Source: Eremomyces bilateralis CBS 781.70
Taxonomy: Eukaryota
Assembly: GCA_010015585.1 (NCBI GenBank)
Contig: ML975150.1
Direction: 5' to 3' (one strand)
DNA length: 64,000 bases
The notes beneath the pieces were generated by a model. It was not told the DNA's origin, did no database searches, and saw nothing but the letters and a program-made list of their open reading frames with translations. Position 1 is the stretch's first letter; each line of letters starts with the position of its first letter. The translations under genes were made by a program, and so were the position numbers. Below are positions 1-44,798 of the stretch, piece by piece.

Positions 1-1877
1 CTGAAGAGGAGCCTGCTCGATAGCTGGCCGATTATAGAGGACGAACCGCTTCGCATCATGGATAAAGCTTGAAATGCCAGGGCAATTACTTAACTAGCCG
101 AACTATTAGCGAAAGCACTTGACGTGCTAGAGGTATACTAACGGAAGTAAATAGCTCTATAGACGCGATAGCATGAGCTCCTTCCGACACCTTCCCCATC
201 CATCCAAGAGCCTCGAGCCAGTGAAGAAGATGCTCCTGCAAGAATTGATGTACTTGACCATTATCGCAAAGTCGAGCACCGCTTTTCTGGAGGTGCTGGA
301 TCCAGTAAAGACATGCGTACTGGACTTCAGGAGGAAGGCTTTTTTCAACTCGGCTTCTCTCGACATTGGCTACAAGCATGCCGGGGGCATCTACGCAACA
401 GATATCTTGCTTGAGTGATGACGACATAAGCTGGATACAGCTGTTGGTTAACACTTGGTGGGCTTCCTTCTCGTCTACCCAGAAATTTGGATCTCCGCAT
501 CTCTTTTTATCGAGAAGAAAGTCGCGAAACGAAGGGTGATGCAGGCGAAGTGGATATATGTCGACCTTAGGGACGTCTAGAATCGCATAAAGATCCCTGA
601 GCACCTGATCGATCTTTTGCTTGGTGATATTAAGCAGCCTGTGAAGCGAGCTGGCAGAGAGCGGAGAGAAGAGAACAACGATGCTTCCAAGAATGTGCCT
701 TTGCATGCCATACGATGCTTCCTTCTCCTTTGCTGAGTAACCTGACCGGATAGATTTCTTTAGGACGGTAGTATAGAGCTTATTAAGGTGTACTTCTGGA
801 TGCTCTTCTGGTGCAGGAATAGAGGTACTGCCTTCTAGCAAAATTTGCACTCTTTCGTCTGCGAGATAACCTTCTTGAATGAACCGACAAGCGGTTGCGG
901 CCCAAATGAACAATCCCCCTGCAATCTGGATCAGGCTTTTGATAATCTCTTCGCCTGGCCAGGAGTCATCCAGAGAGTGCTCCTGTCCAATAAGTTTAAG
1001 ATTATACTCGAAGAAAACAGAGATGTCATGATCTACGATTGAGGGTGATATGCTGTGAAGTACAAAATCCTGGAGATTCGCATTCGGTAGCTGACGGAAT
1101 CCATATCGGATTGGAATCTCAGGTCGGCTCGTTAGTAAGACTCGTAGTCGAACCGTCTTTAACAATCGAGCTTCAGCCAAGAGGTGTATGATAATCCGGA
1201 TGTTATTATCACCGTCGCACTCATCGAGCGCATCAACGATAAGTATGTACGAGGACTGGCTACCGCTTTCACCTAACTTCAATAGTGGACCTAGGATAAG
1301 CTGCTGCCACTGGTCACGGAGGGACTGACTCGTAATGTCGCGGCGCTCTATGATGGCATCGCAAATGTGCTGTTGAAGAGAGGGTATGTTGTTCGCCAGC
1401 TGCCACGCAATGCTCGTGATGAACTTGCCTGCATGGTTAACATCCCCACCGCCGCGCGAGAAGAAGAAGCTGGCTCCGAGATGCTTCTCATCGAAGTACC
1501 TGCGGGCGACAGTGCGCGCAATTGTCGACTTGCCCGTGCCGGCCAAGCCGTTCAACCAGAAAAGAGAGCGCCCATCTTGCCCGTCAGCCCAGTCGTATAT
1601 CTCTTGGAGGAGGTCGACGCGGGTATCGGGAAGGCAGGCCGGGTCGTGTTGTCGCTGGTATGCATTGAACGGCGCGTCCTTTGCGGTAGGGAGGGAGTTG
1701 AGCACATCGTTCAAGTCTAGATTGCTAGTCAGCTTCCTGCTGCTTTGAGGCCATAGCCAGCTAAGCACCCTCACTTTCGCTGCTCCTAAAGTTCACAGAT
1801 CCATGGATAGTGCCAGCGACAACCTGCGAATTCTGGTTGGCGGACACACCGCTAATGAGTTGAGTGCTGCCTGACAT
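1..1877 (-). CDS. Fungal NLR (NACHT STAND protein, HET-E/NWD-like, probably WD40 C-terminus beyond the window) with a short N-terminal amyloid-motif-like exon; 3' partial
   Basis: Exon 1 1877-1775 (MSGSTQLISGVSANQNSQVVAGTIHGSVNFRSSE); intron 1774-1717 (GTGAGG..GCTGAC..CTAG); exon 2 1716-143 with CLPDTRVDLL, P-loop GLAGTGKST, SFFF, Walker B LIVDALDEC, LLTSRPE, GLFIWA, HPSFRDFL, YACLYW; intron 142-94 (GTTAGT..GCTAAT..CTAG); exon 3 FIHDAKRFVLYNRPAIEQAPLQ runs off the edge, the segment that typically precedes WD40 repeats in HET-E-like proteins. Confidence 0.9.
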
Positions 1878-2184
1878 GAGCTTGGAGTAGCAACGCTAAG
1901 TTTTGCTAGGTGCCGGTTGTTGCTCTCGTCTGGCACATGTTGCCGTGTATATGGGCATGCGAACACCTGGGAGTGAGTTCATGTCTGTACGCAGATGAGG
2001 TTCATCCTGTTATGGGTTGAAACCCTTGGTTGGCTAAGGCTGAGAGCCCAAGCCTGATTAGGTTAAGGGTTGATTCAGAGTCCAACCCTCTTCGATGTAA
2101 ACAAAGAAGGCTTCCTGTCGCACGTGATGTGCTAAAATGGTTGGGAGTGAGGTGCTGTTGTTCCAGCAGCGAAGTTGTTGTATT

Positions 2185-2228
2185 GTTGTGTGTTAGTTGT
2201 GTGTAAGTTGTGTGTAAGTTGTGTGTTC
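2185..2228 (+). repeat. 11-bp tandem repeat, 4 copies (GTTGTGTGTAA variants)
   Basis: gttgtgtgtta gttgtgtgtaa gttgtgtgtaa gttgtgtgttc read directly. Confidence 0.85.
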
Positions 2229-3154
2229 TAGCTGAATGCCTGGTCCCCCGGCCCTAGAGCTACAGATATACGAGAGTCACGGCAAGATTATTAATGCAGT
2301 TTGTAGCCTTGGACTCCTAGAGCTCATGCCTTGGCCTGCGACACTTCCCCTTCTTGTTCTCTTCTTTAGCTTAATCTAGAATATCTTTGGCTATGTGTAT
2401 GTTGTGTGCATCCAGCTACCGTGCCGTAACACATCCTCAATCCTCAACTAGCAAATGCATTCGCAAGGCTCGCCAATCAACACTCCTGCCTTGCCGCTGT
2501 CCACTGCTGGAGAGCAGCTGTCGGCTGTAAAGTAGGGCGGAGCTAACGCCAAGATCATTTGTCGACACTGTCGAAAGCGAGCATCTTAACTGCCTTTCCA
2601 TTCCGGTAGCCAACGGGCGTTGTACGCCCTCTGAATTTGAAGCAATGTCTTATACCACTCTGGTTGACTATATTTATAATATCAAGCGCGAAAATAGAAA
2701 CGGAAATATTATCCACCATCTTTCGTCAAAGTAGGAACCCTTGATTGTGGAGTTTCTAGATTGGCCATGGCCGGTAACCCTGCTGGCTGCTGCCCTGTCA
2801 TCCGCTATAATTATCCCTATTACTCTCTAAGCCGGCTTGGTTTTGGCACGCGATGCTTATAGACACGTTCTTCCGGTCTTCGAATGCCTCGAGGTCGTCG
2901 CGGCCGCCCCTTCTGTCCCTTCTGCTGCGGCAGAGGCTAGTCGCAGCTGGGAACGGAGTCGTGTCAGTCATGCGCGAACGAGAAGGGGAGAACGATTGAG
3001 TGACAGGGGCCCGTTAGGAAAAGGCGCAAGGAAAGGCAAGGAGGGCGAAGGAGGTGAAGGGTGGGAACGGAACGCGGACGGAGAGAAGGTTTTGCAATTC
3101 TTTCGAAAAGTTGTAGATGGGGAGAGTTTAGAGAAAAGAAAGAAGATGAAGAAG

Positions 3155-4262
3155 TCAGAGTAAGGGAAGAGATACCCAAAACCAGAAACGGCAAGGGACC
3201 ACCATGTCGAATATTTTTAAAAAGTCATAGCTTGCATCGTCTATCATTCCTTCCAGCGCGCCATCGATGATTGCAATACCCAGGATATGGAACACGGGAC
3301 ATAACATTGGAACAGTGCTCTCTGTAAGAATGAAGATTTTCCTGGACAGCTCGCACATTAGCCTCAAGCTACGCAGAGGTCTAAACCCGCAAGACTACCC
3401 ACCGGTTACCGTGCCGCTTGACTCCTTTAGTCCATTGGAGATCGACGTCGATATAGAATAGATCCCTCATGGTAGGATCTACATACTTTACTAGCTTGAT
3501 CGTGATGTGCTTCTAGCATAGGCAGCGTAGCTCACTCAGGTCGGTAAGGTTGAATTCCGTATACCACGGCTCCGGTTCTTCACCTGGCACGTGAGATGGG
3601 CCGTACAGGATAGCACCTGGCCGAGTCGCCGTATAGGCGTGGATCAAGATCCCCAAAGGGAACTGCAGACGCATACGGTCGTTTTTGAAGAACAAGTCCG
3701 ACCGCTCCCAGTGCGTTTCCAAGATCGTATACAGATCCTTGAAATCAATCACTGACGCAGGCTCGCGAAGGTTGCTTAGCCTGTACTTTTTCGTGAATAT
3801 CTCAGAGATGTACTAAACCAGTTCAGCTCAGTTACAGTTACACCGAAGTCCGTCGCATATGTACCTACAGTAGTTTTCGTTGCGCCGCGGTCCACCGAAC
3901 TACGTCCGGGAACCTCTGATGTCGAATCGCGCCGAATGGAGTGAAATAGTTGTTCCATGTTACGGGCGTCCCGATCCGATCGATCTCCATAATGTACGCC
4001 AAGAAAACGATAATATCGAAGTTCGTTGCTATCGTCAGCCGGTCGTCTGAGGATCCGGAATAATTTCGATACTTGCAGAACCTTAGCGATTCCGTTAGTC
4101 GGCTGGTGCTCATTGCCATGCCCACAGAGCTTACATTTCCCATCTCTTTATCACTGATTTGTAGTTCACGCGAGTTGTTGTCTCCCCTCGTTTGTTCACA
4201 TCTCCTAGTCTTTGGACTTGTTCTTCAAATGCATTCAGTCCTAGCGGATCAACTTCCGTCAT
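3155..4262 (-). pseudogene. DUF3435-like tyrosine recombinase (Starship captain type), premature stops and C-terminal truncation
   Basis: Spliced model (introns 4134-4082, 3864-3813, 3402-3342) gives MTEVDPLG..KRWEMFCKYR..RKLL*YISEIFTKKYRLSNLREP..HWERSDLFFKNDRMRLQFPLGILIHAYTATRPGAIL..CLC*KHITIKLV..DLQWTKG..LCPVFHILGIAIIDGA. RxQ..YTATRPGA, TKG and CPV..L.IAI.D match DUF3435 motifs as I recall them. Stops at 3865-3867 and 3513-3515; similarity ends near 3195. Confidence 0.75.
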
Positions 4263-5742
4263 AATGTAATTGCGGGAAAATGAAGGTGTAGGGGTGCGGT
4301 CGGCTTCTTCCTAGAGAAGTATTGTAGTAGGAGCCTGGTTCCGAATCCGTAGTCCAGAACATCAACAGCAGAGGAAGTCGCCATTCTTGCAGTGCCTTGC
4401 TTTTAAGGTAAGCGATTGGATTGTCTCCTCAAAGATGTGAGCGGCAGCAAAGGATGCATCAATGACACACTAAAGTCCCAACAATGAAGCAGAGGTGCGC
4501 CTAAGATAGTCGGGCGCCACAGGGAAGGGATTGATTGCTCGACTACTAGTAGCGGAGATATCAATTCTACGAGGTGTCTTGGCACGATAATGAAAGCGCA
4601 AAGGAAAAATAACCTTCGAAACCCCGTCTAGAAACCTGAGAATTCTCAGGACACTTTAACCAGCATCTTGATGATAATCACCATTGCTCCATCGCGCTTT
4701 GACAGTATTTGACTCTTGATTCTTGCGGGAGAGGCTGGGTGTGTCTCGTCAAAGCGCATGGCTCGTGTTGGAACTTCTGTTGTGTTGGAACTTGGAACCT
4801 CATCGGGACCAAGCTTCCCGCAGTGAGAAAGTATCGCGTGGTCGCTTGTGTTGCTAATTGTCAATTTGCCATTCACCCGGATGCCGGATGCTGTCCACAC
4901 TCTATAAGCATTAAGACGCCACTTAATTTACTCCGCGATAGTCTCAGAATGTTCCCACGTGTCGGGCTAGTTCCCCAGGTCGGGCAGGTCCTCACCAGCA
5001 TAGCCCTGCTTAAGACTTAGATATCGGATATGACAGGGGGGCAGCACTGGTCAACAGTTATCATGATACTGGAGGTTGTTAGAGCCACTACAATGGGCGC
5101 TTAGCGCATGGCGTTAGTTGTAGTCTGTAGATAGTAGATATTGAGTAGCTGAGGAGAATAGTGAAAGCGGGCTCGGCAGGCAATGATGCGATAGTCGAAA
5201 GACCATCGCCCCTACGATAAGAAATGGAAAGAAGATCGGACGCGGCGCACCCAAAGGCGCCGCGGAAAGTATAATGACTTTTGATTGTATTGAGGTGATT
5301 CCACTGCTGCAGCAGAATCTATAGACTGATCCCGCCATCCGAGAGAGCTATCAATGCTAACGCTAGCAGCTCATGTATCGCTTCAACGCCCAAATGGGTA
5401 GTTGCTTTCGCTCCTGAGCGCACCAGTATTCCCCCCATCCCCAGAGCCGAGCGATCAATAAAACCATGCTTGCTTCCTTCCTATCGAGTGAGAGGTCCAT
5501 CCATCCGTGACCGAAAAATAGTCGGACGCCGGGCCTGTGGCCACCGTACACCACCGCCATATGCCGAATCCGAACGCGCCCGAAAGATGGTGACCTCGCG
5601 AGGGACCCTTTCTGGAAGTGTTGCTACTCGGGAAATAAAACCAAAGAAACGCCGTGGATGATGCAATACGCGTTGTCGGCGAACGTCAAGCGTTAAGAAG
5701 AAGGAAAGGATGGGTAGTGGGCACATGAGGATGGGCCGGGGA

Positions 5743-8446
5743 TCAGGTGATGTATTTGTACATCGAATCATCCTCCGGCATGCGGGCGAGATACTCCTTG
5801 TCGAGGAGCGACTCTATGCGCTTCTTGATCATGGTCACCTCGGGCTTGAAGTGGGAGGCGAGCTGCGAGATAGTCTCGCTGATCAGTTGGAGATGAGCGC
5901 AGGTCTTGCGTTGCCTGATTATACAGGTTAGTTCGGTTATTCACAACAGCCTAAATATTAGAAAAGGAGATAGGTACGTACTTCATAATGCGAACGATCG
6001 TCGCCTCGATGTAGTGAGCCCGCATCTGCCGCACCGAGTCATCCGTGTCCTGGCGCTCCTTGTCATTTTCGACTCTATTCCCCGCCGATACGACGCCGAC
6101 TTTGATGCGGATGAATTTGCCGGAAAAGCCCTCATTGAACTTGAAGCGATCGGTCGGCTTGATGTCTCGGGTCATCGGCTCCTTCAGGAGGATCCGCGTC
6201 TTCGTCGCCAAGGACAGGGACTGCAGGTTTCGCGTGAGTTCGTGGGGCGGAATGTTCGTCCGCGCCTCGATCTCCTCGTAGGTGAGCGCCTCGTTCTCGC
6301 TGAGGTCGTTGAATAGGAGGAGGATGATCATCGCATAGGTGGAGACATTGAGTTCGTGTTTGCGTTCCCGCAGACCATCCTTCGTGGGAACCTTAGGGAA
6401 GACGGCGCGAATGTCGGCGGTGCCCATGCCACCGAGCCAGGAGAGGACCCGACCGGAATGTCGGTTCAAGTAGAACTTTTCGAACCCCTTCTTCACCCGC
6501 TCAATCTCGGGAGGGAAGATCGGCCCTTGCGCCTTGTCCTGCTTATTCGGGTCGCGATCAAGTGCGCCGCTCATGTGATCCAGTGGCCAAACGGTGGCCG
6601 TGAGGACATGCATCGAGAGGTCGACTCGCGCAGGGTCATAGTCTCCAAGCTTGTCAACGTATGCCCTGTAGCCATTGCTCAGCTCTTCCGAAACGGTCAT
6701 GTCCTTAAACATCGACTCCAGCTTCGAGGTGAAATTGTTGCCGAGCTCGATCTTCATCCGGGAGATCATTTGCTTCTCCACGTCGTTGCTGACGGACTTG
6801 TTCATGAGGAGTCGACGGCTGAGATGCTTCTTGTAGTACTTCTCGAACATGTCTTTATCTTGAACGTAGCGAAGGAGAGTGATCGCCTTATCCAGCACCA
6901 GGTCCACTTCGTGCTCTGTCTTGCCTTTGATTCCCTTCTTCATGTTGTCGTCGATGAAGAGAGAAATGTATTCCGTGCCACGCGGGAAAGTGGCGGCATT
7001 GATGAACTCACTGAACACCTTGCTCAATGCCGCTTGTAGAGCCTGGTCCGAAGCGAACGAGAGGCGCCAGATCGTGTCGAATTTGTCCTTAAGCTGCAGC
7101 ACATCCTCTACCCATTTCATTGCAGCCGCGGTATGTTGATTGACAACCCGTTCGCCAGACTTCGTCGATCCATCCGAATATCCAGGAGCTGGCGCGGGAG
7201 GTGTATGGGAGGCTGCAAGAGCAGCCCTGTTGATCTCATCACCCATTTGTGCGACCCGTTTCTGGATTGCCGTAATCAATTCCGTCTTTTTGGAATCGAC
7301 TCGTGCATTAAGATTATAGACTAGGCTCAGTTCTTCGATGCGGTTGTTGTCACTCATGAACTTCACGCCATTCGGCATCGCAATGACCTCTGCTATCTTG
7401 TTTCGGATCAGCTCATCTTCGACCACTCTCCTGATCTTATCGGTTGTGGACTCCGACAGGGTTGATCGACACCGATCCTCCTCTTCCCGAATGCGGCGAC
7501 TCGCCCAGCGGCAGTAGGTCCCGGCATCATTTTCGCGAATCAGCCTCTCGGATTCCTCTCGATAGAACTCTGTGCTGGCTTTGAGAAACCTGGGCTGAAA
7601 GCGGGTAACGTAGAGGCGTGTCTCCTGTCCGTCGGTGTTCGACTCGTTCAAGCTTTCCATCATGTGAACACAAGACCGGATGAAGTGCTTGTTGATGGTG
7701 TCCCCATCGCGCTCCATGCGCACTTGGTCGAGAATGATCGTCGATAATACATCCAGTAGGTCCATTCCGTCTTCGCCTTTGGTGACGAGCCACTTGAGAA
7801 CGGTGTCACGGAAGAGCTCCATGCAGGCCTCAAAAATGGGGGTTCGGCGTTGCTCACGGCAGTAGACACGATCCTAGAAGTACCATTAGCACGAATAATT
7901 GTACCGTGGGGCACGGTACCATACCAAATACATCAGAACATCCGCCAACATGTTGATGCACGTCTGATGGTTATCCCATGCCTTGGTTGCTCCCTTCAGC
8001 AACAACTCTCCGCTGACTCTCCGCTCATTGACCGTCTTCGTGTCATACTCCTCAAAACTGAGAAGCGCCGACGATGCGAGGGTGTGCAGTCTCGGACGGA
8101 TATCTTCGCTCAGCCAGTCGTGTTCGAAATCGATGACCCGCTTGTAGAGCTGGTCTCCTTTGCGCTTGAGGACCAAGACGTAGGCATGGCGGTAGAGCTG
8201 CTCATATGACAACTGAGAGGCATTCTGAGTATGGATTTCGCGGAAAGAGTCCGACAATGTGACCCATGTCGGCTCGAGGTCGACATCGTCGCCTTGGATG
8301 TTCTGTATAGGCACGGATTCAAAGTGAGCCAACAGTCCCGCCATGGTGTAATATATAACTCTGTGGGAAGCAAATGGAAGCGGGAAAGAAGGATCGTATA
8401 CCTTTCGCGGAGGCTTTATCTTCCTAGCCCCACGGCTGGCGATCAT
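5743..8446 (-). CDS. CUL3: Cullin-3
   Basis: NASQLSYEQLYRHAYVLVL, EYISLFIDDNMKKGIKGK, DKDMFEKYYKKHLSRRLL, IVRIMK|QRK neddylation region, IKKRIESLLDKEYLAR; introns ~8401-8303, ~7925-7876, ~5981-5915. Confidence 0.95.
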
Positions 8447-8890
8447 CACGTCGACTCGTGGGACAAGTGAATCGCTACTTCTTTAACGTTTAGCGGCGAA
8501 TTTGGGGGTGGAAGCTGAGAGATATACGGTGGTGACGGGGAATGGAAAAGAGTCAGAGCGAATCCTCCAGGTTGAGAACACGGAGTGATGCACTAGACAT
8601 TCTACACGAAGTTGGAGCCGTTTAGGAAAGGTTCAGAGAAGTGAGGCAATGAAGAAGTGGTTGCGGAGGCAGGTAACCATGGAATGGCGGATTGGATTGA
8701 ACGAAGAATGAATGAACGCTGAGAGCGGGAGTGAACGTGGGGCCGCCCGCGAACAAGGATCATCGCGACTTACGCCCGCTTTGAGTTTAGTCCCAAGTTC
8801 TTTGTAAAGTGACGACGATGACAAAACTTCGTATTGGCCTTTGAGTCCTTTCTGATATACCCGTGTCACGTCGATAATACTCCTGGAAGA

Positions 8891-9479
8891 ATGCAGAGGC
8901 TACCGGCAGCTCGTGGCATCCGCACGCTTTTGCCATCATGGCATCAAGGATACGCATCCGCTCCTCTGCGGATACCATCGACGGTCCTTCGATCGTCTGC
9001 GAGGGCCTCGTTGTGGCGTACTTCTTCTGTCGCTGCGTGGAAGAGCAGTTTCTCGACCGCCAGGAGCCTTCGGGACCAGCGGGCACCTTTGACGGAACCG
9101 CCTAGCTCGGCACCAGCCGTGAGCGATGAGGAAGCTGAGCCCAAGAAGGACGTTCCGTCATACGATATGACCTTCACCTGCAAGAAATGCACCACTCGGT
9201 CCACGCATCGAGTGTCAAAGCAGGGCTACCACCATGGGACGGTGCTGGTGACATGTCCCGGGTGCAAGAATCGCCACCTCATCTGCGATCACCTGAAGGT
9301 AAGCAGCCATCGTCTGCGAAAAGGCTTCGTGATCCTGCGGAAGAACATTAGCTGATTTCGGGTCATGACAGATCTTCTCGGACTCCCGCATCACCATAGA
9401 GGATATCCTGAGCGACAAAGGCGAGCTCTTGAAACGCGGTGTTTTGAAACCGGATGGCGATATCGAGCTTTACAAATGA
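8891..9479 (+). CDS. ZIM17: Mitochondrial DNL-type zinc-finger chaperone (Zim17/Hep1/Tim15)
   Basis: Arg-rich presequence; [38 protein letters not shown]; intron 9299-9371. Confidence 0.92.
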
Positions 9480-10109: not shown

Positions 10110-10199
10110 CTACCAACCCCTTTTCCTACCCGATACTCCATGCTCAATTCCTTTTACCAACCCCTTCTCCTCCCCCTATACTCCATGCTCACTTCCTTC
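10110..10199 (-). repeat. ~44-bp imperfect tandem duplication of the last codons of UTP20
   Basis: accaaccccttttcctacccgatactccatgctcaattcctt followed by accaaccccttctcctccccctatactccatgctcacttcctt. Confidence 0.8.
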
Positions 10200-13100
10200 T
10201 GCCGAGCCTTCGACGTCTCCCGCTTCTTCCGTTTCATTCGCTCATGGGCCTCAGGATCATTCACCGCATCCAACTTCCGCTTGACTCTCCTCTCCTCTCG
10301 CCTCTGGGCCGCCGCCTCCTTCGCCTTCTGATAATGTCTCACATACTCCGTCGTCCCAAGCTTCTTCTGCAACCCGCTCATGATGCCCTGGCTGGTATTG
10401 ATGGTTTCCGTCAGGAGTTGGTTGTACGTGACGTTCAAAGATTTTGCTTTCGGTTGGCTGGGGTCCGTCATGTTGTAGAGCGATGGGAGGAAGACATGGA
10501 TGGATTCGGAAAGGACATCTTTGTCGAGCGTCTCACATAGAGATGCCATTAGGTCGATCGCGGCCTTCTTCACCCGGATGGTTGGGAGTAGTCCTCCTGG
10601 TCCTTCTCTGCGGACAACGTAGGCGAGGCGCGAGAATATCAGACTTGCGCCTGGGATACTCCTGCTAGCCTGCTCGACTTCCTCGGACTCCGACTCATCG
10701 TTTTCTAATTCTTGCTCTTCTTTTTGCGCCAATGACCGGCGGGAAACGAGAGGGACCTGGGTTTGAGCAACGAGACGGGCAAGAGCCAGCAGATTCCGGG
10801 AGCAGTACTTCAACAGCTCATCGGCTGGCTCAGGCGACTCAAATGCCCTTAGATGTGACTTGGTCAACCCGATGAGCTCGTCGTCACCAAGATCAAACGA
10901 AGGAGCACTCTTTTCCGTGCCCGCCTTTTCGTTCGATACCTTGGTCCGGAAATACTGATCCAGGTATAACCCAATTAGCTTCGCGGCCATCCCCTTGACC
11001 CATTGGTGAGGGAACCAAAGACACTGCTGCATCGCCTCCCACACGGGCTTAGTCTTGGAAGAAAACGCACGCTGAGGAGCAATGGTGCAAAACTTTTCGA
11101 ACGTCTGCAGGGAGAAATAGATGGTTTCCCAGTTGTCGCGATCGGACATCGTCGTAGGATCGCTGAGAAATTCCGCCATCCAACTGAGGAAAGGACCAAC
11201 ATCTCGGTTGTCATCGCCGATGACCTCGAACCACAGAGCCCAGATTTGGAGGGCAGCATGTCGCAAGGCATCGGACTCACTCTGGCTGAGCCAGTCTTGA
11301 AGTAGGCGTACAGTTGTGGACCTCTGCTCGGATTCCGCGCGCTGCATCGCTTCTTTGAGTAGAATTCCTGCCATCGCCCGGCAACTCTCGGACTCGTCGT
11401 TGATGATGACCATCACAAGGGGCACAAAAGCCGACTTGATGACCTGCTGGACTAGGTCCTCTCCAAGCTTCGTCAATACAAGATGCATCAACTCCATCGT
11501 GGATTCTCGACCTTCCTCGTATTGATATTGGAGGTTCTTGACGAGGAACTGAACTTGCTTGGAGAATCGGTCTTTGCTTTGCGGACAATTCGTCAAGAAC
11601 AGGAAGTAGGTCGACCTTGCCATGGCTCGGGTTGACTTTGTCTGGTTCGTGATCATGATTCTCGCCACGGTATCCATGGCTTCGTAGAGCTCAGGCATTA
11701 CCATCTTACGGCCAGTGACGGCTTTGAGCAAGCTGAACATGACACCTTGTCGCTCTGGTTCTTCAATGTCGGTCCGAATACGCTTCAAAATATGCGCAAT
11801 GTGCTTCTCTTTGACCATCACATCTTTTCGGTCCTTCAATACGGCAACAATGAGCTTGAGGGCGGCTTGAGAAAGTTCAGTGCCAGTATTTGGGGCACCC
11901 TCCACGATGCGGACGGCTTCTGCCACGAATACTGGCGCATCGGTGGCGAGTCGTGGAAGGGGGGCCGCGATTATCGATGCTGCAAGTCGCATTGCGGACA
12001 TTTGAACCTCTTCGTGTGATGCCAGAATCGAGTCGCAGATTGGCGGCAGTAATCCGGAAAGATTCTCGGGCGTCTTCAAGTTTGGGTGCTTTTGAAGGAC
12101 GGATCGAAGCAAGTCGAGCCCGAAGCGGACGAGCTTATACAGCAGGGAGGCTCGCCGTGCGCCGGCTGCCTGCTTGGTGGGTTGCTGTAGGATCTCGAAG
12201 CAGAAAATCAAGATGCCTCGGTCTGAGAGTGCGGGATTCTGCATGATACCAAGTCCAATGCGGCGGAGAAATTCGTCCACTTTCCGAATCATGGCCAGCG
12301 GAAGGTTTTCCGTCAGCAATACGCGGAGTGGCTGGATCAGACTTGCGATACTTGACTGCGTGCAAATCTTCGACACAATCTCCATCGCGTCAAAGCTCTT
12401 GTTGCTCTTCACCTCCTTCATTTGACTGATGTAGTCTTCTGATTCCTTCTCCTCTCCGACTGCGCCAAACGTACTGTCCATCATCACGTTGACTAGGTCT
12501 TCAAGACAGTAGTCGAGATCACCAGCGGATATAGTGGGTATCAGTATCACAAGGAGAGTGTGCACTGTGAATGAGAAGACATGGCGTTGATAGCCTCTCT
12601 GAAGAGTGGAGTTGAGACTCTTGATGACAAAGCCAACGGATTGAGGTCCCAATGCGGTGACGATATCCGCAATCGCTTTCCGTGCAGTATCTCGAGTGTC
12701 GGCCGATTTGCTCCGAAGCACCGCGGATACTTCAGAAAGTAGCGAAACCAGCTTCTGTTCGAATTCATCATCCGTTAACAGTTTGATGGTCTTGGCGTAA
12801 CATGGTGCAAGTATCATACGGGACTGAACCGTGTCTTCGTCTTGCTTGTGGAGGAATTGGTATAGTGGCGGTAGAACGCCATCTGTGAGGTCGCGACGGA
12901 ACTTTGTAGGGCTCGTGATTGATTTCGACAAGGCAGTCTCAACGGCGTCGCTCATGTCAACATCCCCGTCAGCAGCATCCTCAGATTTCTTCAACTTTGA
13001 AGCGGAGCGGCTTAGGGAGTCCAAATAAGACGAGATCAGCCGGGTGAGTGTCTTCGTTTTTGCCTCAGGTGCCTTCAAGCGACCGCAATGTTTCTGAAGT

Positions 13101-16100
13101 ATCGCCCGCATCTGAGACCAAGCCAACCATGCCGCAAGCGAGTTGATGGCTATAATAGCCTCAGTGACCAAGTTGTGGTGATTCTCAGCAGTAGTCTTAT
13201 CAAGCACAAAGCTCTCCATGAGTGGAATGAGGACTTGGCTGACAACGAAGGTGGTGAACTGCCCTGTCTGGGCTTGCTCGGCCATACGACGCATGGCTCG
13301 TAGACGCCTATGGTGTTGGATGTGGAGAATGTTGGCGAAAACGGACGCCTCCTCATCGCCATTCATCAGAAGTGGTCCGAGTGAGCTCACACTAGATCCT
13401 GAGGGATACTTGGCGACCATTACTCCAAGCAAGCCAACAAATTCTGCGCGGACTTGCTCATCATGGGCCCGAAGGCCTTTGATGAGGTCTGGAAGGATAA
13501 CGCTCTCGACCTGGCATTTATAGGCAGCACATTCTTCCTCTGATTTGGTGCCTGAGACTTCAATGAATCGTCGTACGGTGAGTGAAGCGCTGGCTCGGAT
13601 AGATAGCTCATCGGGAACTTTCAGAAAGTGGAGTGCATTGTAAAGGATTGGAAGCCATTGTAATGTGGTCAATGAGGAATACAGAGTCTCGTTGACTTGA
13701 TGGTACGCTCCGAGTCTTTTGGTGAAATCCGGTTCGCTCAAGTTCCGGTACTCCACACTGTTTAGCTCGCGGCATATAGTGCTGATTCCTGCCAGGGAAT
13801 CATTGATTTGAGATAGATCATCCACCACGTCGCACAGAAGCAGTCGTATTTCGGGCTTTCCTGGGTCACCGAAGATGGAGGAAATGATACGATATAGCCG
13901 TTCAAACTCATCGGAAGCTGCATCCATCTGAGTCCGGGGAATGAAATGGTGTAGAATCCTCAGCAGATCCGTCTTGACCTTCTGATTCAGTTGTCCTTTC
14001 GGCTGTTCCAGCAGACTTGACACCAGCATAACTAGCTTTTCGGCGCTCTTTTGGGTGCGGACCAAGCCCGAGAATGTGACGAGCGTGCTTAGACTTGCCT
14101 CCAAGACCGGCTGCTCGGATCCCTTCTCGATAATCGCAGCAATGGAATCGAGCGCGTAGTCAACATCGCGAAGCAGTGATTCCTGGATCGTTTGGCTTTG
14201 CAAGCCGCTTTCGGAGGCGAGTTCGGCTAGGCCGTCCAAAACTTGAGAAAGGACAAACACTTGCACTTCGGCCTTCGCGTTCGGGGTTGTCAAGCAGTCA
14301 ACAACACTTTTCAGCATGCTGGGATATTCCTGAGAGAGGAAGCACGCCGTTGCTGAGTTGCCGTAGAATAGTCCGACAAGTTGCAATAGACCCGAGACAG
14401 CCTGAGCTTGTTCGCCCGCGAAACTGACATCTCTATCAAACACAGCGGTGCTGAGAATGATAGGAACATATTTGGTCCAGTCGATTCCAGTTCCATGCTC
14501 GAACAACATCGCCAAGCATTTGTATGAAATACTGCGTACAACCTTTTGCCTCTCCGGGGATGCCGCGTTGTTTGATGATGAAGGGTAAGATCTGAGGAGG
14601 CAGTAAAGAATTGGCTCAACAACATCCGCTGCAACTGACTCCGCCGACGATCCAAGGAAAGCCAGCAGATCCCTCAGCATTGTGAGCACGCCTTGCTGCC
14701 GTCGTATGTCTAGAACGTCCTCGTTGAGCACATCTTGGTCCACATCGTCACCTTGGAACAACTTGACGTCTCTCAAGGGGCCAAAGCAAATCCGAATGTA
14801 CTCCAGCAAATCTTCGGCCGGAAATCTCGTCAATGCGCCAAATATGGCACGTCGTTTGTTTTCCGGACGGTTGGCAGCACTGCGCGTTCCTGATTTGGTG
14901 ATGGCTTTTCCGTAAAGTAGCCGGAGCACTATCGGCATAACCACAGGTCGATCTGTGGGCTGCAGAGCGGAGTCGTCGTCGACGTTTCCCAGGAAGATGG
15001 TGATGCGATCCTTAAACTTGGCATCGTCAATGAGGTCAAAGAGTGCCTCTTGATACTTCAGTAAGCTTGGTGATTTCCAGGTCATCAGAGCCTTCATTGC
15101 GCTTCGTTGGATGTCGGAATCTCCAACCGTGAGAAGTGTTGATAGAGCTCCGTGAACTTCGGACGATTGGTACAACGCTTTCGGATTTTTGAATTTACTG
15201 AAGAGTGAGAGGAGCGACTTCCGTTCCTTGACATCCAGAGTAATGTCCAAGGAATCCTGCTCCTGCTCAGCTTCGTCATCTTGAGTGATTTCGTCTGCGT
15301 TCACTTGGGACAGAGTCTCGGTCCATTTCATCAGGAAAGGGACCAATTCTCGCGACCTCTTCTCAGCCATATGCGGTACTGCATTGAAAACTCGCAAGGC
15401 TTGTTCTTGGCGCGAGATGGTTGAATCGGGGTTGATGTCATGCGCTTGTTTGAAAATGGTTCGAAGGTGTTCTTCGGCGTGCTTCTCCTGGTGAAAGGAC
15501 TTTTCGAACGATTTGACGGTCCTCTCGAGAAACGTATTCCCATGATGCGGGAGGATCCAATCGTCTTCTTGTTCTTCATCTTCATCTGGTTCGGCCTCAA
15601 TAGCGTTGCCCTGGTCCGGCCCTCGCAGCCACTCAAATGAGATCTGCGATACCACAAGCTCTCCCTCTTTCGATTCGACGATTGCTCTCAAAGTTTTGAG
15701 AATGTCTTCCCATATAGGGGCGAAATGGACAGTCAACAGTCCGAAGCAGTAGGCAGGAATACAGACTTTGAGAAGGGGATGTGAGGAGGCGGCGCTGTAC
15801 AAAGTAGCCAGCTTTCGTATTGGAATTCCGACAGCTCTACCTGTATCGATCGAGACAGGAGCGGATTCGATGGATTGTAGAGCATCAATGATTGGAACGA
15901 GAGGGGTTTCGCCCGCACAAAGCAGTCCCAGTGTATCGAGACAACAGTTGCGTAGCGAACGAGATGGTGCTGACAAGGCCATCTTCATAGAATCTGCCAA
16001 TCGATCGACCTGGGCTTCGGTGAGATCACTCAAGCGGCAACCGCTTCGGCAGCGCATGCTCATTGCTTCCCAGAATGCAGGTGCGAATGCAACGCTGGGC

Positions 16101-17860
16101 GCCATTTCACAAATGGAGGCCCAATCATCGTGAGGAGTGGAGGAATCCGCCGATAAAAGGCATTTGTGAGCGTTGCCAAGAGAGAACAAACGTAAATCCG
16201 AACGCATCGAATCTTTAGTGTGCTTGAGGGTTCGAAGCAACAGGTTTCGAAGGGTCTTCGTCAAATGCTTCTCGATATCCAGATTTAGTCGTTGCTGAGA
16301 GGGGAGCTCGAGGAATACATTGCAGAGCCAAAGTTGAGATTGAAATGATGGATCGTCAGTCTCAGCTGAGCAAAGGGTATTGAAGAAAGAGCACATCCTA
16401 TTCTTCCACGCTTGTGGAATGACAATAGGCCGCCCTTGACCGCTTAATCTCGGTAGGATATTAAGCAACGAGGAGCAAATCCCTGTCTCGTAGGCGTTCC
16501 ATTGCTCGGTGACGAATCGTTGAAATAGAGCAAGCAAGAAACCGTCGAATCGTTCAATGCCGAACTTTGCAAAGAACTCGCAGAATGCAACAAAGTATGC
16601 TGCCCATGGCTCGCGGATCAAACGGTCTAGCTGCTTCGATCGTATCAACATGACGTCCAATGGACAGCGTTGCAACGCGAGAACCGAAAGACCGAGGACA
16701 TCCGGTGCAATATCCGCGTGGTTTACACCATTGCCCTCGACAAACGACATCGAGAGATCGATGCATTGAAAGACACCTTTCCAGTCAACCTCCGAACGAT
16801 CGCGGCAGACGGAGATTGCGGAAAATAGCAAGTTGACAAGGAATTTCCATTGGGTCAAGGTGAATTCTTTTGCTTGCGCAATTTCCAGGATGACGCTGAT
16901 CAGTGAGGCATGTGCCTCCGCACAGAGTTCGGGTGATATCTCCACAAAGATTCCGGAAATGATGTCGGTCATCAAGTGCGTGCGGAAGGTGTCAGTTGAC
17001 AACTCGACGGCAACAGTCACCAACTCATGTAGAATAGTGGGACCGTTAAGATGGACTCTGTCCTGTATGCCCTTGATAGACTCGACATAGAGGACAATTA
17101 GACCGCCTTGGAAGGTTTTTGACGGTGGGTCAGCCTCGGCAGCTGACTCAAGAGAGTGTTGAACTATGGCATTCAGAGCTTTGTGCTCCTCTTTGCGACT
17201 AGAAGCAGCTTTTCGAATGAGAAAACTCAGAGCTTCTGCAGCAAATCGAGAGAGGAACGGTTTCTCATGAGACGCGCCAAGTAGGGGTTCCATGAGGTCA
17301 AAGACAGTCTTGATATCCTCGATAAGGACCCTAAAGAGGAATTTGAACAGCCAAGCAAGGCACATAAAGCTCCACTCAATGACTTCAACAGCATTGTGAC
17401 GGAGCACAAGTCCAGCAACCGCATTCACGGTCGTTGGGAAGTACTTTTCGAATCTGACTCCCAAATCCCGGGCAAAGCTAGAGACTAGGGAAAGCAATGG
17501 TTCAAGAGATAAGGTGTCTCCTAGACCAATATGCTCGAGGAGCAGCTCGTGTATCTCTTTTTCATGATGGAGAATCTGGGGTAGTGTCTGGGATAGAGGT
17601 CGAACTTTCTGAGAAAAGTTTGTGAAGTTTCCGGAAAGATTTATATCTTCCCATCGTTCGAGAGAAGTCCTGAAGTAAGAACTGGTGTCATCAGAGTCAA
17701 TTTCCAACCGCTCATTTCGGGTGGATCGGATGGGATCGATGCTGATGTTCGCAATGCGTCTTGTAAAACTCTGAAACCGGTGACGGTTGCCATTTCCATG
17801 CTCTTTCTTTTCGCGGATTTTACTCTTCGGGCGAGACAGCCGCTTGGTTTTTGGAGGCAT
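10154..17860 (-). CDS. UTP20: U3 snoRNP / SSU processome HEAT-repeat protein Utp20
   Basis: 2568-aa intronless ORF; N-terminal HRFQSF..ISIDP..F..SLERWEDINLS..LPQILHH; NILHIQHHRRLRA; LQRGYQRHV; MKEVKSNKSFD; QFLVKNLQYQYEEGRES; basic C-terminus. Confidence 0.93.
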   Translation of the reverse strand: MPPKTKRLSRPKSKIREKKEHGNGNRHRFQSFTRRIANISIDPIRSTRNERLEIDSDDTSSYFRTSLERWEDINLSGNFTNFSQKVRPLSQTLPQILHHEKEIHELLLEHIGLGDTLSLEPLLSLVSSFARDLGVRFEKYFPTTVNAVAGLVLRHNAVEVIEWSFMCLAWLFKFLFRVLIEDIKTVFDLMEPLLGASHEKPFLSRFAAEALSFLIRKAASSRKEEHKALNAIVQHSLESAAEADPPSKTFQGGLIVLYVESIKGIQDRVHLNGPTILHELVTVAVELSTDTFRTHLMTDIISGIFVEISPELCAEAHASLISVILEIAQAKEFTLTQWKFLVNLLFSAISVCRDRSEVDWKGVFQCIDLSMSFVEGNGVNHADIAPDVLGLSVLALQRCPLDVMLIRSKQLDRLIREPWAAYFVAFCEFFAKFGIERFDGFLLALFQRFVTEQWNAYETGICSSLLNILPRLSGQGRPIVIPQAWKNRMCSFFNTLCSAETDDPSFQSQLWLCNVFLELPSQQRLNLDIEKHLTKTLRNLLLRTLKHTKDSMRSDLRLFSLGNAHKCLLSADSSTPHDDWASICEMAPSVAFAPAFWEAMSMRCRSGCRLSDLTEAQVDRLADSMKMALSAPSRSLRNCCLDTLGLLCAGETPLVPIIDALQSIESAPVSIDTGRAVGIPIRKLATLYSAASSHPLLKVCIPAYCFGLLTVHFAPIWEDILKTLRAIVESKEGELVVSQISFEWLRGPDQGNAIEAEPDEDEEQEDDWILPHHGNTFLERTVKSFEKSFHQEKHAEEHLRTIFKQAHDINPDSTISRQEQALRVFNAVPHMAEKRSRELVPFLMKWTETLSQVNADEITQDDEAEQEQDSLDITLDVKERKSLLSLFSKFKNPKALYQSSEVHGALSTLLTVGDSDIQRSAMKALMTWKSPSLLKYQEALFDLIDDAKFKDRITIFLGNVDDDSALQPTDRPVVMPIVLRLLYGKAITKSGTRSAANRPENKRRAIFGALTRFPAEDLLEYIRICFGPLRDVKLFQGDDVDQDVLNEDVLDIRRQQGVLTMLRDLLAFLGSSAESVAADVVEPILYCLLRSYPSSSNNAASPERQKVVRSISYKCLAMLFEHGTGIDWTKYVPIILSTAVFDRDVSFAGEQAQAVSGLLQLVGLFYGNSATACFLSQEYPSMLKSVVDCLTTPNAKAEVQVFVLSQVLDGLAELASESGLQSQTIQESLLRDVDYALDSIAAIIEKGSEQPVLEASLSTLVTFSGLVRTQKSAEKLVMLVSSLLEQPKGQLNQKVKTDLLRILHHFIPRTQMDAASDEFERLYRIISSIFGDPGKPEIRLLLCDVVDDLSQINDSLAGISTICRELNSVEYRNLSEPDFTKRLGAYHQVNETLYSSLTTLQWLPILYNALHFLKVPDELSIRASASLTVRRFIEVSGTKSEEECAAYKCQVESVILPDLIKGLRAHDEQVRAEFVGLLGVMVAKYPSGSSVSSLGPLLMNGDEEASVFANILHIQHHRRLRAMRRMAEQAQTGQFTTFVVSQVLIPLMESFVLDKTTAENHHNLVTEAIIAINSLAAWLAWSQMRAILQKHCGRLKAPEAKTKTLTRLISSYLDSLSRSASKLKKSEDAADGDVDMSDAVETALSKSITSPTKFRRDLTDGVLPPLYQFLHKQDEDTVQSRMILAPCYAKTIKLLTDDEFEQKLVSLLSEVSAVLRSKSADTRDTARKAIADIVTALGPQSVGFVIKSLNSTLQRGYQRHVFSFTVHTLLVILIPTISAGDLDYCLEDLVNVMMDSTFGAVGEEKESEDYISQMKEVKSNKSFDAMEIVSKICTQSSIASLIQPLRVLLTENLPLAMIRKVDEFLRRIGLGIMQNPALSDRGILIFCFEILQQPTKQAAGARRASLLYKLVRFGLDLLRSVLQKHPNLKTPENLSGLLPPICDSILASHEEVQMSAMRLAASIIAAPLPRLATDAPVFVAEAVRIVEGAPNTGTELSQAALKLIVAVLKDRKDVMVKEKHIAHILKRIRTDIEEPERQGVMFSLLKAVTGRKMVMPELYEAMDTVARIMITNQTKSTRAMARSTYFLFLTNCPQSKDRFSKQVQFLVKNLQYQYEEGRESTMELMHLVLTKLGEDLVQQVIKSAFVPLVMVIINDESESCRAMAGILLKEAMQRAESEQRSTTVRLLQDWLSQSESDALRHAALQIWALWFEVIGDDNRDVGPFLSWMAEFLSDPTTMSDRDNWETIYFSLQTFEKFCTIAPQRAFSSKTKPVWEAMQQCLWFPHQWVKGMAAKLIGLYLDQYFRTKVSNEKAGTEKSAPSFDLGDDELIGLTKSHLRAFESPEPADELLKYCSRNLLALARLVAQTQVPLVSRRSLAQKEEQELENDESESEEVEQASRSIPGASLIFSRLAYVVRREGPGGLLPTIRVKKAAIDLMASLCETLDKDVLSESIHVFLPSLYNMTDPSQPKAKSLNVTYNQLLTETINTSQGIMSGLQKKLGTTEYVRHYQKAKEAAAQRREERRVKRKLDAVNDPEAHERMKRKKRETSKARQKEVSMEYRGRRRGW

Positions 17861-18028
17861 GGCTCCGGATATTGTGGTCGAATATTATGATTTTTGATCG
17901 TTGAACATCATCCATTGAAGAGGCGTGGAAAAAAAGTTGATACTCCAGCAATTTCACGTGATATGGCGGTGAACTTTCACCCGGCGGACTGTATAAGCCA
18001 GACCGTAGTTTGGGTGTTATCTTCTCGA

Positions 18029-43400: not shown

Positions 43401-44798
43401 ACGCGAACAGTTGTTGGAGGTCATGCGAGGCTTCTACATCCAACCAGGCGAGCAGGTTCTCGCGGAACTTCCGCTCGATAGCTTCGACCTCGAAGAAGTC
43501 GAGTCTCGCAAACGATACCCGGCATCCGGCCAGCCGCCCTGGAGCAAGTTGAGCATCATTCAAACCATCAAGCCCGATCGTTCCACCTACCTCCGGATCG
43601 TCTTCAACTCGGCGGCGCAAGGATATAGGATTACCCTGACCGACCGCTTCACCAACCAGTCGTCGCAGTTAAAATTTCGCATCGCCACGGACCTTGAGCC
43701 GCGCATCGAGTTCCTTCGCTCCGATCCCCATGATCTCAGCTGCACCATCGAACGGACCGACCCCTCCACCAAAGTCGGCCCGGAATGGAGCCAGCTCCTC
43801 CACGCCACCGAATCCCCCACCATCCGTTCCTACACCTTCTCCACCATGTCCGACCTGCACACCTTGGAATCCATCCTCACTGGATTCACCGTGAAATACG
43901 ACTGGTAAGTCCCCCCACCCACCATCACCCAGGCCTCCAACTCACCCCATATAGCTCCCCTCAATCTTTCACTCTCTCCCGCTCCCGCCGCTCCGCCCTC
44001 TCCCTCACCCGCACCCCCAAATCCTCTTCCACAACCCGCCTCCAAATCCTCGAACAACTCCACTCCCCTACCCACCCACCCCTCACCCTCCTCCTCGCCT
44101 TCTTCGCCTCCTGGCCCCAAGCCCCCTATCTCGCCATCCCCCTCCGCCCCTCCGACGCCTTCGAGCGCCTCGACCCCTCCCGCCTCGCCCTCGCCTCCGC
44201 CACCACCACCTCTGCTTCCGCCCCCGGCAAATTCGCCATCAAGTTCCCCGACGCCAAATTCGGCTTCCCCACCACCCGCTCCAAGCCCCGCAGCCGCGAC
44301 CCCTCCCCCCGCAACAGCGTCGACCACCGCCCGGACACCGCCACTAGTGACGGCTCGCCCGCGCTAGCCGGATCGCTTCTCAGCGCGGGCGGCGGGCGCG
44401 GGAAGCGCGAGAGCGTGCTGCTGGACGGGCTGAGCTCCGCGTGGAAGGAGGGGGGATTCGCTGGGCGGTACGACACGGGGGGAACGGCGGGGCAGGGAGC
44501 CGGGGAGGCGGAGGTGGGGTACGTGAATTTGGCGGATCTGCCGTTCGCGGCCGAGCGGGAGGAGGTGGTGGTGGGGTTTGCAGGGAGTGAGGAGCGGGGA
44601 AGGCTGTGGGCGGCGTTGCCGAGGATGGGGGGGGAGGTGGGGGTTGGGGCAGAGGAAGAGTATGGGGGGAGATATGGAGGGAAGGAGAGGGATAAGGAAA
44701 GGCAGAAGAAGCAGAGTAAGGTGTTGAGGAAGAAAGAGGATGAGGAGGAGGAAGGGAAGGGGAGGCATGGGAGATTCTGGAGACGGGAGAAGGAGTGA
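40476..44798 (+). CDS. Hypothetical protein: disordered Pro-rich N-half, globular C-half
   Basis: ORFs 40476-42782, 42859-43908 and 43785-44798 join via GT-AG introns 42756-42800 and 43905-43953; WLRAAVWWFLRAR..HVDLGKTFWIL helical block. Confidence 0.8.

What the first reader, a model, noticed from the sequence alone, without database searches (positions are those of the whole stretch)
3155..4262. Decayed Starship captain-type (DUF3435) tyrosine recombinase, split across small ORFs
Seen: four exons joined by three GT-AG introns give one reading frame with W..FC, RxQ..AYTATRPGAI, LC*KHI, TKG and CPV..ILGIAIIDG, broken by two TAG stops. Similarity stops near 3195, so the C-terminal catalytic half is absent. 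Known: DUF3435 tyrosine recombinases are the first gene of Starship giant transposons. Inference: this is an inactive captain relic.
Basis: partly seen in the sequence, partly recalled or inferred. Interest (0 to 1): 0.7.

Follow-up and report, generated by a model that had tools for sequence, protein, structure and literature searches.

The report
Broken Starship-captain recombinase gene remnant
This is the dead front half of a fungal "Starship captain" (DUF3435) tyrosine recombinase gene, still transcribed and spliced but unable to make an enzyme; such remnants are common in fungal genomes, so it is ordinary.

Summary
On the minus strand, 4262-3155, four exons and three short GT-AG introns give a 313-codon reading. 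It aligns from its first Met with full-length DUF3435 proteins (phmmer E 3.5e-13 to 7e-7). It passes Pfam PF11917 at 28.4 bits (cut-off 25.8) once the TAG is read through.

The gene is dead. TAG 3515-3513 replaces the conserved Tyr of LCYKH. The exon2/exon3 junction carries either an in-frame TAG (3867-3865) or a frameshift. Homology ends at 3251-3212, so the YxxR and catalytic Tyr regions are missing, and they occur nowhere else in the 64 kb.

The locus is exactly the annotated 133-aa "hypothetical protein" P152DRAFT_112645 of Eremomyces bilateralis. That model avoids the stop with an intron that the RNA contig depths do not fit.

The same genome holds one roughly 88%-identical paralogue. Its C-terminal model is listed as a Phoenix-family Starship recombinase by Gluck-Thaler et al. 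2024; this locus is not listed there.

RNA-derived contigs indicate that the remnant is transcribed and its three introns removed. It lies between core genes (cullin, UTP20) and a multi-copy NACHT NLR. No element boundary could be tested.

Verdict: ordinary pseudogene remnant, low interest.

The parts
4135..4262 (-). Exon 1 of the remnant. ATG at 4262-4260; ends in phase 2 (..KRWE + AT).
   Evidence: Same start as paralogue P0005, 30 of 43 residues identical. An X3 RNA-type contig aligns down to 4133 and then runs on for 740 more letters.
4082..4134 (-). Intron 1, 53 nt, GTAAGC..CTAAG, with a CTAAC branch-like motif.
   Evidence: The X3 contig piece ends at the donor. Bin depth 170.5 against 166.8 predicted if the intron is removed.
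3865..4081 (-). Exon 2 (FCKYRNY...AAQRKLL). Its last codon is TAG at 3867-3865. An alternative donor, GTAGGT at 3868, would end the exon at 3869 and shift the frame.
   Evidence: 42 of 72 residues identical to P0005.
3813..3864 (-). Intron 2, 52 nt (GTACAT..TTTAG), or 56 nt if the GTAGGT donor is used.
   Evidence: Bin depth 168.2 against 167.5 (52 nt) or 164.8 (56 nt).
3403..3812 (-). Exon 3, the start of the DUF3435 domain (YISEIF..HAYTATRPGAIL..LC*KHI..QWTKGVKRHGNR). TAG 3515-3513 sits at the conserved Tyr of LCYKH.
   Evidence: Pfam 28.4 bits. phmmer hits. Alignment.
3342..3402 (-). Intron 3, 61 nt, GTGGGT..TCCAG, with a CTAAT branch-like motif.
   Evidence: also used by the annotated model P0004. 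Depth 161.9 against 161.4 predicted.
3155..3341 (-). Exon 4. KIFILTESTVPMLCPVFHILGIAIIDGALE is homologous. Homology is lost between 3251 and about 3212. An unrelated tail follows, then TGA at 3157-3155.
3212..3253 (.). Truncation junction, where DUF3435 homology ends and a multi-copy sequence begins.
   Evidence: The paralogue contig matches 4289-3250 and then runs on unlike the window for 1256 nt. The exact DNA contig ends at 3223. Summed depth rises from 2x to about 5x and higher to the left. A 154-nt contig from another run bridges 3199-3352 with no mismatch.
86..1895 (-). Neighbouring NACHT/NPHP3_N NLR gene, a member of a multi-copy family. Intron 1774-1717 is spliced in X3.
   Evidence: Pfam NPHP3_N 9e-32 and NACHT 6.6e-10. 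Joints and depth.
5743..8482 (-). Neighbouring core gene for a cullin. Its last intron, 5981-5915, is spliced in X3. The same RNA-type contig runs on into the remnant.
   Evidence: Pfam Cullin 4.6e-180..

Best explanation
Window 4262-3155 (minus strand) is a non-functional 5' remnant of a DUF3435 gene, the Starship captain type of tyrosine recombinase. By its near-identical paralogue it most likely belongs to the Phoenix family.

It keeps the N-terminal region and the first quarter to third of the DUF3435 domain. That part includes the TATRPG arginine and the TKG lysine, which by their order are probably the first two residues of the R-K-[H/Y]-R-Y pentad. This residue assignment is inferred, not tested.

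The remnant cannot make a recombinase, for three reasons:
(1) A Tyr codon has become TAG (LCYKH to LC*KH).
(2) The exon2/exon3 junction is broken by a TAG or by a frameshift.
(3) The gene is cut off at 3251-3212, where it abuts unrelated multi-copy sequence upstream of an NLR gene. The YxxR box and the catalytic tyrosine are therefore gone.

The locus is still transcribed on the minus strand and its three introns are still removed. This is inferred from the depth and length of RNA-type contigs.

It is a fossil of a past captain gene, possibly the 5' end of a degraded Starship that extended towards lower coordinates. That last step is inference only.
For: Pfam PF11917 at 28.4 bits, E 1e-6, above the 25.8 cut-off, for 3812-3381 with TAG read as X.

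A phmmer search of 1.84e9 proteins gave 52 hits at E<=1e-3. The best outside this genome are P0006 at 3.5e-13, P0008 at 5.7e-10 and P0016 at 6.9e-7. Of 18 hits scanned, 13 carry DUF3435, including full-length P0008 (289 bits) and P0016 (354 bits).

In the MAFFT alignment the remnant is collinear with full-length proteins from the first Met to ..DFLKI. X215 falls on the conserved Tyr of LCYKH and X115 falls just before the conserved Y-I.

tblastn of 12 relatives, 3 of them longer than 600 aa (P0008, P0016, P0023), against all 64 kb found no C-terminal piece.

DNA contigs show exactly two copies over 3301-4200: depth 329.2 = 160.6 + 168.6. The second copy is about 88% identical and continues past 3250, where the window diverges.

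The paralogue corresponds to adjacent GenBank models KAF1811693 and KAF1811694. The second of these is erebil1_488705, assigned to fam01 = Phoenix.

X3 contigs skip canonical introns in the cullin and NLR genes that the DNA run X1 does not skip. The X3 depths over the remnant (161.9/168.2/170.5) fit removal of all three introns (161.4/167.5/166.8).

The literature states that captains need the RKHRY pentad (PMC10104507, passage) and that clades 1 and 3 use YxxR (PMC11162782, passage).
Against: Without read-through, the best single ORF scores only 17.8 bits (E 0.0017), below the Pfam cut-off. Exon-2 and exon-4 pieces alone give no DUF3435 hit.

Only profile positions 2 to about 119 of 418 are covered.

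Five of the 18 phmmer hits scanned have no DUF3435: the paralogue's N-terminal model and four long repetitive proteins.

Two word-based protein searches found no close full-length relative.

No terminal repeats, target-site repeats, 5S or tRNA target were seen. No element boundary is defined.

The RNA status of X3 is the tool's guess, backed only by two spliced flanking introns. The splicing of the remnant itself is inferred from bin depths and contig length, not from listed joints.

RIP indices are only borderline (0.82 and 0.99).

A GenBank gene model exists at this locus.
Confidence: 0.85

Rival explanations
1. The annotated 133-aa gene (P152DRAFT_112645, which is P0004) is a real, functional short protein, a domesticated fragment of the recombinase.
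For: The model can be rebuilt exactly from window exons 3674-3536, 3478-3403 and 3341-3158. The locus appears to be transcribed.
Against: The model's first intron (3535-3479) removes 19 codons that are conserved in relatives (..SELRCLC*KHITIKLVKYVD), including the stop. Its removal predicts an X3 depth of 122.9, against 161.9 observed. The model starts at a Met inside the conserved domain and ignores exons 1-2, which the paralogue shares. P0004 scores only 21 bits on PF11917, below the cut-off.
Confidence: 0.04
2. The truncation and stops are artefacts. The assembly mis-joined at a repeat near 3223-3253, and the real gene continues elsewhere and is intact.
For: The breakpoint coincides with a contig end at 3223 and with the start of multi-copy sequence. 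X1 may be the very data the assembly was made from, so it is not independent.
Against: A 154-nt contig from a different run (X4) bridges 3199-3352 with no mismatch. The length of the X3 contig fits an end at 3223-3227, with no continuation into DUF3435-like sequence. The paralogue's own models are also split and lack the H/Y-bearing segment. The two stops lie in single-copy-like sequence that the exact contig 3223-4289 covers.
Confidence: 0.04
3. The fragment never belonged to a Starship at this site. It is a piece of a DUF3435 gene carried here by segmental duplication or rearrangement within a repeat-rich NLR region.
For: Everything to the left of about 3250 is multi-copy, at 5 to 30 times the single-copy depth. 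Extra depth also reaches about 4800. One X3 contig joins 2534 to 4573 with 24 other letters between, which points to a related copy lacking the 2-kb stretch that holds the remnant. No boundaries or accessory genes other than the NLR were found in the window.
Against: A DUF3435 gene next to an NLR meets the published definition of a "Starship-like region" (PMC9156397, passage). The remnant keeps its own start codon and 5' flank and reads away from the core genes, as a captain at an element's 5' end would.
Confidence: 0.3

Closest known systems
Starship captain tyrosine recombinases (Pfam DUF3435/PF11917), Phoenix family (family 1, clade 1) of Gluck-Thaler et al. 2024
   Same: Passes PF11917 when read through. 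Collinear with full-length DUF3435 proteins from the N-terminus to the LCP..LA..D.AF region. Its near-identical paralogue in the same genome is classed as fam01 in that paper's Table S4. Lies next to an NLR, one of the genes that typically accompany captains.
   Different: Only about the first 290 of 600-750 residues remain. It has two stops (or one stop plus a frameshift), no YxxR box, no catalytic Tyr and no definable element. It is absent from the paper's list of 19 predicted recombinase genes for this genome.
Pseudogenised captains and degraded or derelict Starships (for example the Wallaby captain; 'Derelict' regions of Macrophomina)
   Same: A captain-type gene with premature stops, left in an accessory-type region. 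The literature expects many such cases (PMC11162782 and PMC9156397, passages).
   Different: Those cases are defined within recognisable elements or by several accessory genes. Here only the gene stump and one NLR can be seen, because the window ends 3 kb further on.
Crypton (CryptonF) tyrosine-recombinase transposons
   Same: Fungal tyrosine-recombinase mobile elements, used as the outgroup of captains.
   Different: The remnant and all its informative relatives match DUF3435. No Crypton reference was available to test against directly.

Membership tests
DUF3435 / Starship captain-type tyrosine recombinase | Significant match to Pfam PF11917 | tested here: met
   28.4 bits, E 1e-6 (cut-off 25.8), profile positions 2-80 of 418, with the TAG read as X. 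The single intact ORF scores only 17.8 bits. The annotated model P0004 scores 21 bits over profile 25-119.
DUF3435 / Starship captain-type tyrosine recombinase | Complete catalytic pentad R-K-[H/Y]-R-Y (PMC10104507; PMC11162782) | tested here: not met
   In the alignment with full-length relatives, everything from the P-Y-x-I-R-R-G box onward is absent. tblastn found no such piece anywhere in the 64 kb. Assigning R of TATRPG and K of TKG to the pentad is inference.
DUF3435 / Starship captain-type tyrosine recombinase | Uninterrupted reading frame | tested here: not met
   TAG at codons 115 and 215 of the spliced reading, or a frameshift at the exon 2/3 junction with a stop at codon 126.
DUF3435 / Starship captain-type tyrosine recombinase | Tyrosine-recombinase fold (core-binding plus catalytic domains) | tested here: inconclusive
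   A profile of 8 relatives against PDB sequences gave one irrelevant hit at E 0.27. The AlphaFold2 model of relative P0016 was too poor to search with (mean pLDDT 44.2).
Starship element (giant cargo transposon) | Captain is the first gene at the 5' end of an insertion bounded by direct or terminal inverted repeats, with an empty site elsewhere | not testable with these tools
   No genome is held for this window. No convincing repeats in 1-9000. The window ends 3 kb downstream of the remnant.
Starship-like region (Gluck-Thaler et al. 2022 definition) | DUF3435 sequence co-located with DUF3723, FRE, PLP and/or NLR genes, without target-site duplications | tested here: met
   A NACHT/NPHP3_N NLR lies at 86-1895 on the same strand, 1.3 kb downstream. 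No DUF3723, FRE or PLP was found among the 18 large ORFs scanned. Definition read as a passage.
Phoenix family (fam01) of Starship recombinases | Phylogenetic placement among reference captains | not tested
   Only indirect. Paralogue erebil1_488705, which is P0049, is listed as fam01. It is 19 of 23 and 28 of 51 residues identical to the remnant over the aligned parts.

The most novel reading that the evidence does not exclude
The remnant marks the old 5' edge of a degraded Phoenix-family Starship. Its cargo side, to the left of 3250, seeded or joined the multi-copy, expressed NLR family seen in this genome. The still-spliced transcript could yield a 114-residue N-terminal (DNA-binding type) peptide that interferes with the genome's other captains.
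Probability: 0.05. Interest if true: 0.45.

Novelty: new member of a known kind. Interest (0 to 1): 0.14.

Why it matters
The practical value is small.

- It corrects an annotated "hypothetical protein", whose model skips a stop codon with an intron the RNA contig depths do not fit.
- It adds one uncatalogued captain remnant to a genome for which 19 recombinase genes and no elements were reported.
- It shows that N-terminal stumps of captains escape current catalogues.
- It flags the boundary between a core-gene block and a repeat-rich NLR region as a possible former Starship site.

It opens no new question by itself.

Tried and rejected
- **Word-based protein searches:** looking for longer relatives of P0001 and P0049 found nothing (111 and 3664 candidates; none scored at or below the limit set, E 1e-3 and 1e-5).
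- **Solved structures:** a profile of 8 DUF3435 proteins gave only a ribosome-inactivating protein at E 0.27, which is irrelevant.
- **Structure prediction:** the AlphaFold2 model of relative P0016 from an 8-sequence alignment had mean pLDDT 44.2, so no fold search was run.
- **RNA genes:** Rfam over the whole window and a tRNA scan both gave 0 hits, so no 5S or tRNA target site is visible.
- **Repeats:** the repeat search of 1-9000 returned only short, low-identity pairs, and self-blastn of 1-5950 against the window found no second copy.
- **Flanking small ORFs:** a Pfam scan of 16 small ORFs flanking the remnant gave nothing below E 0.03.
- **24-letter contig string:** the 24 letters that one X3 contig carries between 2534 and 4573 do not occur in the window. 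That joint is therefore not a micro-exon. It probably comes from a related copy and remains unexplained.
- **RNA runs:** no run is on record as RNA ("no RNA holder listed").
- **RIP:** the composite index is 0.99 and TpA/ApT is 0.82, which is borderline, and the Tyr-to-TAG change is a transversion. RIP was therefore not invoked.
- **Literature:** a search for 'Eremomyces bilateralis' with 'Starship' found 0 papers.

Full report
**What is there**

The window is fungal nuclear DNA. To the right of the finding lie core genes, all on the minus strand or mixed:
- a cullin (5743-8482; Pfam Cullin 4.6e-180)
- UTP20 (10154-17884)
- an F-box/cNMP-binding protein
- a succinate-dehydrogenase-type flavoprotein
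- a TRP channel

To the left lies a NACHT/NPHP3_N NLR (86-1895, minus strand; NPHP3_N 9e-32). The finding sits between these two blocks, on the minus strand.

**Checking the observation**

I placed the following structure:

| Part | Coordinates | Notes |
|---|---|---|
| Exon 1 | 4262-4135 | |
| Intron 1 | 4134-4082 | 53 nt, GTAAGC..CTAAG |
| Exon 2 | 4081-3865 | |
| Intron 2 | 3864-3813 | 52 nt |
| Exon 3 | 3812-3403 | |
| Intron 3 | 3402-3342 | 61 nt, GTGGGT..TCCAG |
| Exon 4 | 3341-3158 | followed by TGA 3157-3155 |

This gives 313 codons, with TAG at codon 115 (3867-3865) and codon 215 (3515-3513).

**Is it DUF3435?**

- Of six separate ORFs scanned, one hit PF11917, weakly (17.8 bits, E 0.0017, below the 25.8 cut-off).
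- With the TAG read as X, frame 3812-3381 (P0001) reaches 28.4 bits, E 1e-6, over profile positions 2-80 of 418.
- An exhaustive phmmer search of 1.84 billion representatives gave 52 proteins at E<=1e-3, 3 at E<=1e-10 and 2 at E<=1e-30.
- I scanned 18 of those with Pfam, and 13 carry DUF3435. They include full-length P0008 (613 aa, 289 bits) and P0016 (650 aa, 354 bits).
- The five without DUF3435 are P0005 (the paralogue's N-terminal model) and four long repetitive proteins that are probably chance matches.

In a MAFFT alignment the spliced reading is collinear with full-length proteins from its first Met through KRWEMFCKY, HAYTATRPGAIL, LC-X-KHI, QWTKG, KIFILTE and LCPVFHILGIAIIDGALE to ..DFLKI. 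X215 stands where relatives have the Tyr of LCYKH. X115 stands just before the conserved Y-I.

**What is missing**

After about 3212 the reading no longer aligns. The relatives continue for another 350 residues or more, through P-Y-x-I-R-R-G and the MGH/Y-rich region. tblastn of 12 relatives, three of them longer than 600 aa, against all 64 kb found no further piece. The best stray hits had E 0.011 to 0.26.

Published work defines captains by an R-K-H-R-Y pentad (PMC10104507, passage), with YxxR replacing HxxR in clades 1 and 3 (PMC11162782, passage). The remnant lacks the last three positions. That its TATRPG arginine and TKG lysine are the first two is my inference from their order and conservation.

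I could not test the fold. The profile search of PDB sequences gave only an irrelevant hit at E 0.27, and the AlphaFold2 model of P0016 was poor (pLDDT 44.2).

**Identity of the locus and its paralogue**

The top two phmmer hits are GenBank proteins of Eremomyces bilateralis CBS 781.70.

P0004 (133 aa, P152DRAFT_112645, "hypothetical protein") can be rebuilt exactly from window exons 3674-3536, 3478-3403 and 3341-3158. It is therefore the existing annotation of this locus. Its first intron (3535-3479) removes 19 conserved codons together with the TAG.

P0005 (198 aa) and P0049 (298 aa) have consecutive accessions on another 701,702-bp contig, and together they form a paralogue. Identity to the window reading is as follows:
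- exon 1: 30 of 43 residues
- exon 2: 42 of 72
- exon 3: 69 of 82 (P0005) and 19 of 23 (P0049)
- exon 4: 28 of 51

P0049 carries on into DUF3435 profile positions 262-373 (101 bits). In the alignment, however, it lacks about 50 columns that hold MGH and the tyrosine-rich stretch. The paralogue therefore also looks decayed (inference).

**Sequencing-run evidence**

In the DNA run X1, which is possibly the source of the assembly, one contig matches 3223-4289 exactly. A second contig matches 3250-4289 with 125 mismatches and 17 gaps, then runs on for 1256 letters unlike the window. Summed depth over 3301-4200 is 329.2 = 160.6 + 168.6, so there are exactly two copies at 80% identity or better.

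To the left of about 3250 the depth rises to 5 to 30 times the single-copy value of about 166. The NLR side is therefore a multi-copy family, and the truncation point is a junction with different, repeated sequence. A 154-nt contig from another run (X4) bridges 3199-3352 without a mismatch.

The tool only guesses that run X3 is RNA. Its contigs, however, skip two canonical GT-AG introns that X1 does not skip: cullin 5981-5915 and NLR 1774-1717.

One 5002-letter X3 contig runs from the cullin exons through 5913-4133. Its aligned piece stops exactly at the donor of intron 1, and the contig has 740 more letters after that point.

The pieces over the remnant were not listed, so I tested splice models against the bin depths. 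Observed depths were 161.9/168.2/170.5.

| Model | Predicted depths |
|---|---|
| All three introns removed | 161.4/167.5/166.8 |
| Unspliced | 202.6 in each bin |
| 88-nt third intron | 143.2 in the first bin |
| Annotated stop-skipping intron also removed | 122.9 in the first bin |

The 740 remaining letters would end at 3227. They would end at 3223, which is the X1 contig end, if the stronger donor GTAGGT at 3868 is used. In that case the frame shifts and stops at codon 126. Either way the exon 2/3 junction is broken.

A contig that spans two genes does not prove a single transcript.

**Context and the Starship question**

Gluck-Thaler et al. 2022 call a region "Starship-like" when DUF3435 sequence lies with NLR, PLP, FRE or DUF3723 genes but target-site duplications are lacking. 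They also describe degraded elements (PMC9156397, passages). The window meets that loose definition through the NLR alone.

I found no other accessory gene among the 18 large ORFs scanned. There was no 5S or tRNA gene and no convincing terminal repeat. The remnant reads away from the core genes, so any element would extend out of the window to the left.

Extra DNA depth up to about 4800 suggests that the two-copy segment reaches a few hundred bases upstream of the ATG. This was not resolved.

In PMC11162782, the supplementary tables that I searched give the following:
- Table S3 lists 19 predicted recombinase genes for this genome.
- Table S8 gives 15 after size filtering and 0 elements.
- Table S4 assigns the paralogue erebil1_488705 to fam01, which Table 1 names Phoenix.

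None of the 19 rows carries the ID of the model at this locus (112645). The stored supplement file was cut, but the rows for this genome are contiguous. The same paper states that many predicted captains are likely pseudogenes (passages).

**Verdict**

This is an inactive 5' stump of a captain-type recombinase gene.

Shown here:
- family match
- two stops (or a stop plus a frameshift)
- truncation, and its junction with repeated sequence
- a single paralogue

Inferred:
- transcription and splicing of the remnant
- Phoenix-family membership
- origin from a Starship at this site

Interest is low.

Noticed in passing
window 1-3250: The NACHT NLR gene and its upstream region are multi-copy in the DNA contigs, with summed depth about 5 to 30 times the single-copy value at 80% identity or better. 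Many variant contigs also appear in the RNA-type run, so this is an expanded, expressed NLR family.
   Followed up: partly
window 2534 / 4573: One RNA-type contig (depth 23.7) joins 2534 to 4573 with 24 other letters in between. Those letters are not in the window, which suggests a related copy lacking the 2-kb stretch that holds the remnant.
   Followed up: partly
window 4133-5913: A single RNA-type contig runs from the cullin's last exon (stop codon near 5743) for about 1.6 kb into exon 1 of the remnant. This is either a very long 3' UTR or read-through, or overlapping transcripts merged during assembly.
   Followed up: no
window 2174-2226 (and 2003-2440): A GTTGTGTGT-type microsatellite lies here. 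DNA contigs of related copies skip about 430-480 bases (2002/2008 to 2432/2485), so this copy carries an insertion, or the others a deletion, upstream of the NLR.
   Followed up: no
window 3479-3535: The GenBank model P152DRAFT_112645 uses a 57-nt GT-AG 'intron' that exists only to skip the TAG at 3515-3513. RNA-type contig depth does not support it.
   Followed up: yes
window 3199-3352: A 154-nt contig of low depth (2.8), identical to the window, occurs in a run labelled as a different organism (X4). This may be carry-over between samples rather than a shared sequence.
   Followed up: no
window 40467-44798: Three adjacent plus-strand ORFs carry DUF7611, DUF7612/7613 and DUF7614. They are probably exons of one large conserved fungal gene of unknown function.
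   Followed up: no
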